From assembly GCA_947473325.1 (NCBI GenBank), contig CANJEJ010000005.1, positions 1 to 60,590 of the forward strand: a DNA stretch of 60,590 nucleotides, in the 5' to 3' direction. The notes beneath the pieces were generated by a model that was not told the DNA's origin, did no database searches, and was given only the letters and a program-made list of their open reading frames with translations. Each line of letters opens with the position of its first letter. The first letter of the stretch is position 1. This stretch comes from Alphaproteobacteria bacterium. Its GTDB lineage: Bacteria; Pseudomonadota; Alphaproteobacteria; SHVP01. This document shows positions 1,779-3,172 of this stretch, piece after piece. Both the position numbers and the translations under genes were made by a program.

Positions 1779-1991
1779 TTAAGCCTTTTTTGCGGCCTTA
1801 CGCTTCGCGGGCTTGCGGGTCGCCTTCTTGGCGGCCGGCTTGCGCGCGGTCGTCTTGCGAGCCGTCGTCTTGCGGGCGGTGGTCTTCCGCGCCGTCTTCT
1901 TCGCCGCGGGCTTACGAGCCGTGGTCTTCTTCGCCGCCGGCTTCTTACGCTTCACAGTCTTCTTGGCCGCAGCCGTTTTCATCATCGCCAT
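1779..1991 (-). CDS. Small Lys/Ala/Arg-rich histone H1-like nucleoid protein (70 aa)
   Basis: MAMMKTAAAKKTVKRKKPAAKK(TTARK)n... with KPAAKK and TTARK repeats; strong GGAGGG RBS. Confidence 0.8.
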   Translation of the reverse strand: MAMMKTAAAKKTVKRKKPAAKKTTARKPAAKKTARKTTARKTTARKTTARKPAAKKATRKPAKRKAAKKA

Positions 1992-2075
1992 GGAACCCTC
2001 CAATTTGGTCCTCAATGCGGTCACAGGTGCTCACGCGTAATCACAGAACCACGCGAAAGTGGATTGATGCTAATC

Positions 2076-2338
2076 GATTCTTTTGCGTTCGTCACGCGAA
2101 AGTTGACAACTTTCTCCGAATATCACAGTCGCCACTTGGGACGAGTCCTTTGTCGGCAAGTGCAGCACAGCGCGACTCGGCTCTGATTCATCTTCGCGAC
2201 AGGAGTCGGACAAGGCGAGCAGACACGATTCAACTGGTCGCCGCCAAGGACTCGCAGGCTGCGTCCCGACTCGAAACAGGACTCGCGTGGCCATTACTTG
2301 AGTCGTTGTCCGATTCAGTTTGAAGAGTCCTAGGACTC
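2076..2338. promoter_or_regulatory. Dense array of 13 GANTC (CcrM-type methylation) sites upstream of the histone-like gene
   Basis: GANTC at 2076, 2143, 2174, 2185, 2203, 2227, 2249, 2268, 2280, 2300, 2312, 2325, 2334. Confidence 0.7.
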
Positions 2339-2404
2339 CCGGAGGGACCGTGACCGCCGTTACTATCCGCACGAAAAATCAATGTATTTCAGCCTGTTAG
2401 CTTC

Positions 2405-3172
2405 TCAGGGTGTGAGGCCGCCACCGTTCACATACAACACTTGGCCGGTCATGTAGCGGGCCGCGGGCCCCGCCAGGAACAGGATCGGGCCCACGACATC
2501 TTCGACGACCCCAAGTCTTCGCAGCGGGATTGCTTGCAAGTACTGGGAGAAGTCGCGCTGCCAGTTTTCGTTGTCGACGCGGCCCGTGCCGCCGGCGAGA
2601 AACGCGGTGTCGATGGCCGACGGCGCGACGGCATTGGCGCGCAGCCGCGGTGCATTTTCCACCGCGAGCGCCTTGGTGAGCGCGATGACGCCCGCCTTCG
2701 ACGCCGCATAAGGCCCGTAGCCGGCGAGCACGCGCGTCGCCAGGCCGGACGACATGTTGACGATGGCGCCGCCGTCCTTCATGCGCGGCACAGCCGCGCG
2801 GCAGATCAGGAAAGCCGCGCGCAGGTTGCCGGCGATGACTTCGTCCCAGGATTCAAGGCTTCGCGCATCTACCGGCGCAAGGTCATGGTTGAAGCCCACC
2901 AGCATCACCAGCACGTCGAACACGCCCACCCGGCCAAAGGCCGTGTCGATCGAGACCGGGTCGAAGGCGTCGATGGCGTGAAAATCTACGCCCGCCGGCA
3001 CCGGATGGCGGGCCTGCGACGCGGCGAGGTCTAGCACGGTGACGCGCAGGTCCGACTCAAGTGCCGCCCGCACCACGCCGCGGCCGATGCCACCACAGCC
3101 ACCGGCCACGACCATGTGGCTGCCGGGCGCCGGCCCGAGTCGGCGGAAATCGGGATGGGGCAGATCGCTCAT
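2405..3172 (-). CDS. SDR family oxidoreductase
   Basis: AGGCGGIG Rossmann motif, YAASK catalytic motif, TGQVLYVNGG C-terminus. Confidence 0.9.
   Translation of the reverse strand: MSDLPHPDFRRLGPAPGSHMVVAGGCGGIGRGVVRAALESDLRVTVLDLAASQARHPVPAGVDFHAIDAFDPVSIDTAFGRVGVFDVLVMLVGFNHDLAPVDARSLESWDEVIAGNLRAAFLICRAAVPRMKDGGAIVNMSSGLATRVLAGYGPYAASKAGVIALTKALAVENAPRLRANAVAPSAIDTAFLAGGTGRVDNENWQRDFSQYLQAIPLRRLGVVEDVVGPILFLAGPAARYMTGQVLYVNGGGLTP

What the first reader, a model, noticed from the sequence alone, without database searches (positions are those of the whole stretch)
2076..2338. Helically phased array of 13 GANTC sites upstream of a histone-H1-like gene
Seen: 13 GANTC pentamers (4 GATTC, 4 GAGTC, 5 GACTC) in 263 bp; uniform chance gives about one. 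Offsets from the site at 2143 are 31, 42, 60, 84, 106, 125, 137, 157, 169, 182 and 191 bp, or 2.95, 4.0, 5.7, 8.0, 10.1, 11.9, 13.05, 14.95, 16.1, 17.3 and 18.2 turns at 10.5 bp/turn. Nine of eleven lie within 0.2 turn of an integer, so they sit on one face of the helix. The spacers between sites are not repeated. Known: GANTC is the target of the alphaproteobacterial cell-cycle methyltransferase CcrM and is read by GcrA. Inference: an epigenetic platform, such as a hemimethylation timer or a multi-site landing pad for a methylation reader, that couples replication state to expression of a small basic nucleoid protein. I know of no described system of this form.
Basis: partly seen in the sequence, partly recalled or inferred. 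Interest (0 to 1): 0.85.

Follow-up and report, generated by a model that had tools for sequence, protein, structure and literature searches.

The report
Dense CcrM-site array before basic-protein gene
Thirteen copies of the DNA-methylation target GANTC are packed just upstream of the promoter of a small, very basic histone-H1-like protein gene, and related bacteria keep a similar cluster there, so it is probably a real methylation-dependent control region in a lineage that lacks the usual protein that reads this mark.

Summary
There are 13 GANTC sites in 2076-2338. This is the only such window in the 3.73-Mb assembly; the next best has 6, and the genome is otherwise GANTC-poor. The array fills the intergenic region upstream of a 70-aa Lys/Ala-rich gene (1779-1991, minus strand).

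Orthologous genes were found in 14 of 17 genomes of this one-family order. Four of six genera keep 5-13 GANTC upstream although the DNA no longer aligns between genera. One site sits 52-53 bp before a conserved -35-like box in 11 of 11 loci. In eight genomes of one genus, the G, A, T and C columns of four sites are invariant (16 of 16), against 23 of 166 background columns, while the central N changes at three of the four sites. That is CcrM's specificity.

CcrM is present. GcrA was found in 0 of 17 genomes of the order, against 27 of 44 genomes from other families. Phasing at 10.7 bp is significant only in this genome.

Verdict: a real, conserved, probably methylation-dependent upstream control region with an unknown reader. 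It is a new variant of a known kind.

The parts
2076..2338 (.). Array of 13 GANTC (CcrM-type) sites. Twelve lie upstream of the -35-like box (2143-2338) and one lies inside the promoter spacer (2076-2080).
2143..2147 (.). Positionally conserved GANTC. It reads AAGGACTCG on the gene strand and starts 52 bp before the -35-like box.
   Evidence: a GANTC starts 53 bp before the box in 10 of 11 loci and 52 bp before it here. One search shows it in the alignment. In G013 the site is GATTC rather than GACTC.
2325..2338 (.). Perfect 14-bp palindrome GAGTCCTAGGACTC made of two adjacent sites. AGGACTC occurs 5 times in the array, out of 117 in the genome.
2090..2095 (-). -35-like hexamer, GTGACG on the gene strand. 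Predicted only.
   Evidence: GTGAC[GT], a 17-nt spacer, then TA[ACG]NNT is conserved in 11 of 11 loci from four genera. The E. coli-type consensus scan found nothing.
2067..2072 (-). -10-like hexamer, TAGCAT on the gene strand. It predicts a transcription start near 2060.
   Evidence: RNA-library contigs run from the gene up to 2003 and 2037, which is compatible with this start but does not prove it.
2050..2106 (.). Two copies of CACGCGAAAGT[GT]GA (2050-2063 and 2093-2106), 43 bp apart, bracketing the promoter-like element. They may be an operator pair.
   Evidence: family D2.
1996..2001 (-). Ribosome-binding site GGAGGG, within a block GGAGGGTT..ATGGCGA that is conserved across the order.
   Evidence: one hit per genome in 14 of 17 genomes.
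1779..1991 (-). Gene for a 70-aa Lys/Ala/Thr/Arg-rich basic protein (H1-like by composition). It contains 15-nt tandem repeats, and its orthologs are 70-269 aa long.
   Evidence: RNA-library contigs from two studies cover it (1663-2003 and 1665-2037).
2169..2365 (.). Stretch inside the array that also appears as a 202-nt contig in one RNA library (depth 5.3, against 32 for the gene contig). The strand and the true ends are unknown.
   Evidence: record 6. Strain-variable positions lie just beyond both contig ends (2170 and 2366).
2405..3172 (-). Upstream neighbour, a short-chain dehydrogenase gene on the same strand. Its stop codon bounds the 413-bp intergenic region.
   Evidence: The same gene order appears in L008.

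Best explanation
The array is a cluster of CcrM methylation sites that forms the upstream regulatory region of the promoter of a small, very basic, H1-like protein gene. What is shown: the cluster is real and unique in this genome. It lies directly upstream of a promoter-like element conserved across the order. Related genera keep a GANTC cluster at the same place although the surrounding DNA has diverged beyond alignment. The sites are conserved as GA-N-TC with a free middle base, which is CcrM's specificity. The genome encodes CcrM, and the gene appears in environmental RNA libraries. What is inferred: the sites are methylated. An unidentified protein, not GcrA, reads their state (fully methylated, hemimethylated after the fork passes, or unmethylated if occluded). 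It binds several sites upstream of the promoter, and in this genome those sites lie mostly on one face of the helix. This binding raises or lowers transcription, so production of the basic protein follows replication or the cell cycle. The next-densest intergenic clusters in this genome sit before an ftsB/DivIC-type and a LysM-M23 peptidase gene, both families tied to cell division, which fits that reading.
For: The cluster is the genome-wide outlier, with 13 sites against a next best of 6. GANTC scores 13, against a mean of 1.26 and a maximum of 4 for the 23 patterns of the same composition. An orthologous gene start was found once per genome in 14 of 17 genomes of the order. GANTC counts in -500..-50 are 13 in this genome, 8 in genus g6, 5-8 in eight g3 genomes, and 4 in g7, which has 11 sites within -158..-782. 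GANTC ranks first of 24 patterns in 9 of 14 loci and first or second in 12 of 14. The intergenic DNA itself has no BLAST match in 60 relatives. A GANTC starts 52-53 bp before the conserved -35-like box in 11 of 11 loci from four genera. In eight g3 genomes whose upstream regions are 44-81% identical, 16 of 16 specified columns at four sites are invariant, against 23 of 166 background columns, while the middle base varies at 3 of the 4 sites. Both GAWTC and GASTC sites are used. Strain variants seen in two other DNA assemblies fall at 7 positions within the array and none lies inside a GANTC. CcrM is present here and in 15 of 17 genomes of the order. Other clusters in this genome lie upstream of a DivIC/FtsB-type gene, a LysM-M23 peptidase gene and hemE. 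Gonzalez et al. 2014 (PMC3973325, passages read) report that conserved promoter GANTC motifs predict CcrM-dependent expression in Caulobacter. RNA-library contigs from two studies cover the gene.
Against: There are no methylation data for this organism. No reader has been identified: GcrA, SeqA and YccV-like domains were not found (the assembly is 90% complete). Genera g4 (0 and 0 sites) and g5 (1 site) have CcrM but no cluster, so the array is not obligatory. Phasing is not significant in the orthologous arrays or genome-wide. The flanks of some sites are also conserved (AAGGACTCG, GAGTCCTT), which could reflect a sequence-specific factor rather than the methyl mark. Part of the array appears in one RNA library, so it may be transcribed. 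The promoter is predicted only; the consensus scan found none. The miss of all 7 variable positions is not significant on its own; by my arithmetic the chance is about 0.14.
Confidence: 0.55

Rival explanations
1. The sites are operators for an ordinary sequence-specific transcription factor whose core happens to include GANTC (for example AGGACTCG/GAGTCCT). Methylation would then be incidental.
For: AGGACTC occurs 5 times in the array, out of 117 in the genome. The flanks AAGGACTCG and GAGTCCTT are conserved in eight g3 genomes and form an inverted pair 25 bp apart. The same AGGACTCG word sits at the conserved position in genera g1, g6 and g7.
Against: Four of the 13 sites here, and 6 of 8 in g6 and 6 of 11 in g7, are GAWTC and do not fit that word. 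A GAATC/GATTC site is conserved in all eight g3 genomes. The middle base changes at three of the four conserved sites, including the AGGACTCG site itself (GATTC in G013), while G, A, T and C never change. No single longer word describes all the sites.
Confidence: 0.17
2. This is an occluded, hypomethylated patch. A MucR-type or other nucleoid protein coats the relatively AT-rich upstream region, represses the gene, and shields the GANTC sites from CcrM, as at MucR-bound promoters in Caulobacter and Sinorhizobium.
For: A MucR/Ros gene is present (176 bits). The intergenic region has 51-58% GC, against 66% for the genome. Ardissone et al. 2016 (PMC5172544, passages read) describe MucR-occluded promoters with several GANTC, for example four in P169.
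Against: Occlusion alone does not explain why selection would keep many GANTC sites with a free middle base. MucR binding and methylation state were not testable here. The gene is represented in RNA libraries from two studies, so it is not permanently silenced.
Confidence: 0.12
3. This is SeqA-like sequestration, a hemimethylation timer. After the fork passes, a protein polymerises on hemimethylated sites lying on one face of the helix and switches the promoter until CcrM re-methylates it.
For: The 10.7-bp phasing in this array has p about 0.0015 against random placement. Eleven of the twelve gaps fall at 9-13, 18-24 or 31 bp. The density resembles the GATC clusters of E. coli oriC and the dnaA promoter (recalled, not from a call).
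Against: No SeqA or YccV-like domain was found. Phasing is not significant in the orthologous arrays or genome-wide. It is not known whether CcrM is cell-cycle restricted in this lineage.
Confidence: 0.12
4. The array is a chance or neutral accumulation of GANTC in non-coding DNA that escapes the avoidance seen in genes, or it marks something unrelated to the gene, such as a replication origin or a small RNA gene.
For: GANTC is known to be under-represented in coding DNA and over-represented in intergenic DNA (PMC3973325, passages read). One RNA-library contig lies inside the array.
Against: Thirteen sites were observed against about 1.3 for patterns of the same composition in the same DNA. 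The cluster is conserved across genera and fixed in position. There is no Rfam match. RNA folding z-scores are -0.4 and -0.6. No DnaA box within one mismatch, no CtrA box and no TTAA at all occur in the region. The hemE-linked cluster, the usual origin neighbour, is on another contig.
Confidence: 0.04

Closest known systems
CcrM/GcrA epigenetic promoter control in Caulobacter (ctrA P1, ftsZ, mipZ). Sources: PMC3708114 (search listing only), PMC3973325 and PMC4647560 (passages read).
   Same: GANTC sites in promoter regions, conserved among relatives. CcrM is present. Cell-division genes in the same genome also carry GANTC clusters.
   Different: In those promoters one to a few sites lie in or near the core promoter (partly recalled). 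Here 12 of the 13 sites lie 52-243 bp upstream of the -35-like box. GcrA was not found in the whole order (0 of 17). The sites are not enriched for GcrA's preferred YGAKTCK flanks (4 of 13, against 0.31 of genome sites).
MucR-occluded hypomethylated GANTC promoters (Ardissone et al. 2016, PMC5172544, passages read)
   Same: Several GANTC lie in one promoter region (four in P169). A MucR homolog is encoded here. The region is more AT-rich than the genome.
   Different: There are three times as many sites here. Neither occupancy nor methylation state is known. The association with one orthologous gene across genera is not a described feature of MucR targets.
SeqA sequestration of GATC clusters at E. 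coli oriC and the dnaA promoter
   Same: A dense cluster of methylation sites within a few hundred bp, with spacing that places the sites on one face of the helix.
   Different: The methylase and motif differ (Dam/GATC). No SeqA domain was found here. The array is not at an origin. Phasing is not conserved in relatives.
Dam-dependent switches with a competing regulator (pap/Lrp, agn43/OxyR; named in passages of PMC3973325 and PMC4647560)
   Same: Methylation sites upstream of a promoter whose state could be set by competition between a methylase and a DNA-binding protein.
   Different: Those switches use two or three sites (recalled). Nothing here points to phase variation.

Membership tests
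CcrM target-site cluster (cis-element of the CcrM methylation system) | Sites match GANTC with any middle base | tested here: met
   There are 13 sites: 4 GATTC, 4 GAGTC and 5 GACTC. In eight g3 genomes the four specified bases are invariant while the middle base varies at 3 of 4 conserved sites.
CcrM target-site cluster (cis-element of the CcrM methylation system) | A CcrM-type methyltransferase is encoded in the genome | tested here: met
   Two halves lie at the ends of contigs C58 and C94 and overlap in ...MRSDW. Both best match the solved CcrM structure 6pbd, with E 7e-85 and 2e-73. The C-terminal half was found in 15 of 17 genomes of the order.
CcrM target-site cluster (cis-element of the CcrM methylation system) | The adenines are N6-methylated in vivo | not testable with these tools
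   The runs laid are held only as contigs. No kinetic or signal-level data are available.
GcrA-dependent methylated promoter | GcrA is encoded | tested here: not met
   PF07750 was found in 0 of 17 genomes of the order, 11 of which are at least 90% complete. It was found in 27 of 44 genomes from other families, and the search detects it in the Caulobacter control genome.
GcrA-dependent methylated promoter | Sites fit the preferred YGAKTCK context (PMC4647560, passages read) | tested here: not met
   Four of 13 sites fit, against 0.307 of all genome sites.
GcrA-dependent methylated promoter | A methylation site lies within the core promoter | tested here: inconclusive
   One site (2076-2080) lies in the predicted spacer between the -35-like and -10-like boxes, but the promoter is only predicted.
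MucR-occluded hypomethylated promoter | MucR/Ros is encoded | tested here: met
   C15:10518-10883, 175.9 bits.
MucR-occluded hypomethylated promoter | The sites are under-methylated and bound by MucR | not testable with these tools
   No methylome or ChIP data are available.
SeqA-type sequestration region | A SeqA or other known hemimethylated-DNA binding domain is encoded | tested here: not met
   PF03925 and PF08755 were not found in this genome, which is 90% complete.
SeqA-type sequestration region | Sites are spaced on one helical face | tested here: inconclusive
   In this array R=0.74 at 10.7 bp, with p about 0.0015. The orthologous arrays give p=0.07-0.44. There is no genome-wide periodicity.
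Alphaproteobacterial replication origin | DnaA boxes, CtrA boxes, and a hemE neighbourhood | tested here: not met
   Only one 9-mer lies within 2 mismatches of the DnaA box, and there is no TTAA-N7-TTAA. hemE lies on contig C1 with its own cluster of 5 sites.
Histone H1-like protein Hc2 family (Pfam PF07382, NCBIfam NF038052) | The score reaches the family's curated cut-off | tested here: not met
   Pfam gives 30.5 bits against a cut-off of 40. NCBIfam gives 26.2 against 135. The 128-aa ortholog matches nothing. The likeness is one of composition only.

The most novel reading that the evidence does not exclude
This order of Alphaproteobacteria kept CcrM but has no GcrA. In it, an undiscovered m6A-state reader would assemble on a many-site GANTC platform that is helically phased in this genome. 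It would tie synthesis of an abundant H1-like nucleoid protein to passage of the replication fork. That would be a bacterial counterpart of replication-coupled histone gene expression, and a second, GcrA-independent way of reading the CcrM mark.
Probability: 0.15. Interest if true: 0.85.

Novelty: new variant of a known kind. Interest (0 to 1): 0.6.

Why it matters
CcrM methylation is the model for bacterial cell-cycle epigenetics, but it is known to be read almost only through GcrA, or blocked by MucR. This lineage keeps CcrM without GcrA. Selection in it has nevertheless preserved, and in this genome multiplied, GANTC sites at a fixed place before one gene. That gives a concrete, compact probe of about 260 bp with 13 sites for fishing out another reader of the mark. 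It also points to a nucleoid-type protein as a main epigenetic target. The organism occurs in freshwater, estuary and drinking-water metagenomes from several studies, so long-read methylomes could test the idea without cultivation.

Tried and rejected
- BLAST of the intergenic DNA (2025-2404) against 60 relatives found only the window itself. Conservation therefore had to be tested through the gene.
- A search with the 70-aa protein in the family gave one weak hit (G007, E 8e-4), because the protein is of low complexity.
- Anchoring on the neighbouring dehydrogenase in genome contigs gave one syntenic locus. L008 is the same contig as G013 and has 5 GANTC. The other 79 loci were unrelated paralogs.
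- The start-region pattern in 400 genomes of the class hit three more genomes of the order and three unrelated genes.
- The three-site pattern in five relatives gave 54-106 hits per strand, against 3-15 for the reversed control, so small GANTC clusters are common in the order. The listing was cut, so I could not rank the H1-linked cluster within those genomes.
- The 'order' search repeated the 'family' search, because the order has only this one family.
- Rfam gave no credible match. RNA folding was unremarkable. No tandem repeat lies in the array. The E. coli-type promoter and terminator scan found nothing.
- Origin reading: no DnaA or CtrA boxes.
- Genome-wide distances between GANTC pairs show no 10-11 bp periodicity.
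- SeqA and YccV-like domains were not found.
- RNA libraries: no contig was laid on 2038-2168 or 2366-2650 in X16, nor beyond 2037 in X19. Lack of cover from contigs proves nothing.
- Literature: searches for GANTC together with histone-like or H1-like terms, with nucleoid-associated, promoter and hemimethylated, and for 'GANTC cluster/-rich/density' phrases found no description of such an array. Supplementary tables of the methylome papers were not seen and could list dense clusters.

Full report
OBSERVATION. The window as a whole is poor in GANTC: 129 sites, against 253 +/- 16 in dinucleotide shuffles. The window's genome is an assembly of 3.73 Mb in 301 contigs with 65.8% GC, estimated 90% complete. 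It holds 7464 sites, or 2.0 per kb, against 3.16 per kb expected from base composition. The densest 263-bp window is this one with 13 sites; four loci follow with 6 and sixteen with 5. Among the 24 XXNXX patterns that use each base once, GANTC scores 13 in the 450 bp before the start codon, while the other 23 average 1.26 with a maximum of 4. The array contains no tandem repeat and only 10-14-nt direct repeats, so it did not arise by amplification of a unit. Independent assemblies from other studies carry it. One DNA contig spans 1557-2650 with 13 differences, and only one of these (2225, outside any site) lies in the array.

PHASING. The Rayleigh vector length of the 13 positions peaks at a period of 10.7 bp (R=0.74), the highest value between 5 and 25 bp. 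Against random placement with the same span and a minimum spacing of 5 bp, p is 0.0097 at 10.5 bp and 0.0015 for the best period within 10-11 bp. Shuffling the observed gaps gives p=0.05-0.06, but that null keeps the near-integer gaps (9, 13, 12, 20, 12, 19, 22, 24, 18, 11, 31, 67 bp) and is conservative. The phasing was noticed before it was tested. It is not significant in the orthologous arrays (p=0.07-0.44; best periods 10.3-11.7 bp). No 10-11 bp periodicity is seen among GANTC pairs elsewhere in the genome. I treat it as suggestive for this locus only.

ANATOMY. The array lies in the 413-bp gap between the stop codon of a short-chain dehydrogenase gene (2405-3172, minus strand) and a 70-aa Lys/Ala/Thr/Arg-rich gene on the same strand (1779-1991; ATG preceded by GGAGGG). 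'H1-like' is a description of composition. Pfam HC2 scores 30.5 bits against a cut-off of 40, NCBIfam scores 26 against 135, and a 128-aa ortholog matches no family. An alignment of the 200 bp before the start codon from four genera shows a conserved promoter-like element: GTGAC[GT], a 17-nt spacer, then TA[ACG]NNT. In the window these are 2090-2095 and 2067-2072, which predicts a start near 2060. The E. coli-type consensus scan did not detect it. Twelve sites lie 52-243 bp upstream of the -35-like box and one (2076-2080) lies in the spacer. Two copies of CACGCGAAAGT[GT]GA, 43 bp apart, bracket the element.

EXPRESSION. RNA-library contigs from two studies cover the gene (1663-2003 and 1665-2037). 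Both stop near 1664, which is a weak hint of a 3' end. A third RNA-library contig covers 2169-2365 inside the array at lower depth. Strain-variable positions lie just beyond both of its ends, so its true extent and its strand are unknown.

RELATIVES. The intergenic DNA has no BLAST match in 60 relatives, and the protein is too low in complexity to search with. The ribosome-site and start block GGAGGGTT(2-4 nt)ATGGCGA occurs exactly once in 14 of 17 genomes of the family, which is also the whole order. Each time it precedes a Lys/Ala-rich ORF of 27-269 aa. GANTC counts in -500..-50 are 13 in this genome (genus g1), 8 in g6, and 5, 5, 5, 6, 6, 6, 6 and 8 in the eight g3 genomes. Genus g7 has 4, with 11 sites between -158 and -782; g5 has 1; the two g4 genomes have 0 and 0. 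GANTC ranks first of the 24 patterns in 9 of 14 loci and first or second in 12 of 14. A GANTC starts 53 bp before the -35-like box in 10 of the 11 loci that have arrays, and 52 bp before it here.

In the eight g3 genomes the upstream regions are 44-81% identical pairwise. Four GANTC sites align in all eight. Their 16 specified columns are all invariant, against 23 of 166 ungapped background columns. The middle base differs among genomes at three of the four sites: A/T, C/G and C/T. These genomes are related and the aligner favours identical words, so no formal probability is attached. Even so, the pattern of fixed G, A, T and C with a free N is the specificity of CcrM rather than of an ordinary operator. 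Some flanks are also conserved (AAGGACTCG, GAGTCCTT), and AGGACTC occurs 5 times in this array out of 117 in the genome. A sequence-specific component therefore cannot be excluded. Variants seen in two other assemblies fall at 7 positions inside the array and none hits a GANTC. By my arithmetic the chance of that is about 0.14, so it is only consistent with constraint.

THE METHYLATION SYSTEM. Three PF01555 matches exist in the genome. One is a 589-aa methylase next to a helicase-like gene. The other two are halves of a single gene cut by contig ends (C58 and C94, overlapping in ...MRSDW). Both halves best match the solved CcrM structure 6pbd, with E 7e-85 and 2e-73. The C-terminal half is found in 15 of 17 genomes of the order.

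GcrA (PF07750) is found in 0 of the 17, of which 11 are at least 90% complete, while the same search detects it in the Caulobacter control genome. Among 44 genomes from 44 other families of the class, GcrA is found in 27 and CcrM in 29. By my cross-tabulation of the rows, 25 of the 29 CcrM-positive genomes have a GcrA hit (one of them below the cut-off) and 4 do not. These counts include G055, which is flagged unpublished. The order is therefore a CcrM-positive, GcrA-negative lineage. That is unusual but not unique.

The sites show no enrichment for GcrA's preferred YGAKTCK context: 4 of 13, against 0.31 of genome sites (motif from PMC4647560, passages read). MucR is present. SeqA and YccV-like domains were not found.

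GENOMIC CONTEXT OF OTHER CLUSTERS. Among the clusters of five or six sites, some lie in non-coding DNA before genes. Six sites in 79 bp precede a DivIC/FtsB-type gene. Six sites in 96 bp precede a LysM-M23 peptidase gene. Five sites precede hemE. Other clusters lie inside genes, or before an ammonium transporter, a GST, a cyclase and hisG. Division genes and the hemE neighbourhood are where CcrM sites matter in Caulobacter. This is partly recalled; PMC3973325 names division and DNA-topology genes in the passages read. The hemE region here has no DnaA box within one mismatch, so I do not call it an origin.

INTERPRETATION. The best-supported reading is a methylation-dependent upstream control region for the basic-protein gene. 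The sequence features, their conservation and the presence of CcrM are shown. Methylation of the sites, the existence of a reader and the direction of the effect are inferred. The remaining mechanisms (an unknown methyl-state reader, MucR-type occlusion, SeqA-like sequestration, or a sequence-specific factor) cannot be separated without methylome and binding data. I rank them in the rival list.

NOVELTY. Methylation sites in promoters of cell-cycle genes, their conservation, and occlusion by MucR are all known (PMC3973325, PMC5172544, PMC4647560; passages read). Three things are not described in the literature I could search (supplements not seen): an array of this density, its fixed association with a nucleoid-type protein gene across genera, and its presence in a lineage without GcrA. 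I rate it a new variant of a known kind.

Noticed in passing
G000 contigs C58:3-548 (minus strand) and C94:3-584 (plus strand); loci L002 and L003: The CcrM ortholog is split by an assembly break into two halves at contig ends, overlapping in ...MRSDW. An RNase HII-like ORF lies just upstream of the N-terminal half and a MutY-like ORF follows the C-terminal half. The names of these neighbours come from reading the translations, not from a family search.
   Followed up: partly
Whole order (17 genomes, 7 genera): The order has CcrM in 15 of 17 genomes, but no GcrA (PF07750) was detected in any of the 17. In 44 other families, 25 of 29 CcrM-positive genomes have GcrA. The four exceptions are G022, G046, G049 and G052.
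   Followed up: yes
G000:C81:13566-13644 and G000:C98:2693-2788: Two very tight GANTC clusters (6 sites in 79 bp and 6 in 96 bp) lie just upstream of a DivIC/FtsB-type septum gene and a LysM-M23 peptidase gene. In the first, three pairs of sites are exactly 11 bp apart.
   Followed up: partly
G000:C1:44217-44447: Five GANTC lie upstream of hemE (uroporphyrinogen decarboxylase), next to about 2 kb with no coding-like ORF. This is the usual neighbourhood of the alphaproteobacterial origin, but no DnaA box within one mismatch and no full CtrA box was found.
   Followed up: partly
window 1822-1946: The basic-protein gene contains 15-nt tandem repeats. Contigs from other samples join across 46 or 84 bp there, so strains differ in repeat number. 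Orthologs range from 70 to 269 aa.
   Followed up: partly
window 2169-2365: A 202-nt contig from one metatranscriptome library lies entirely inside the GANTC array, without cover of the dehydrogenase gene next to it. Its strand and true ends are unknown.
   Followed up: partly
window 2050-2063 and 2093-2106: A 14-nt direct repeat, CACGCGAAAGT[GT]GA, occurs twice 43 bp apart, bracketing the predicted -35 and -10 boxes. It may be an operator pair for another regulator.
   Followed up: no
G000:C4:66209-70195 (locus L001): A 589-aa N6/N4 methylase gene lies between a 402-aa ORF and a helicase-like ORF. It looks like a restriction-modification operon and is unrelated to GANTC.
   Followed up: no
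Relatives G003, G006, G007, G008 and G012: Runs of three GANTC within about 70 bp occur 54-106 times per strand per genome, against 3-15 for the reversed control pattern. Clustering of GANTC is therefore a general trait of this order.
   Followed up: partly
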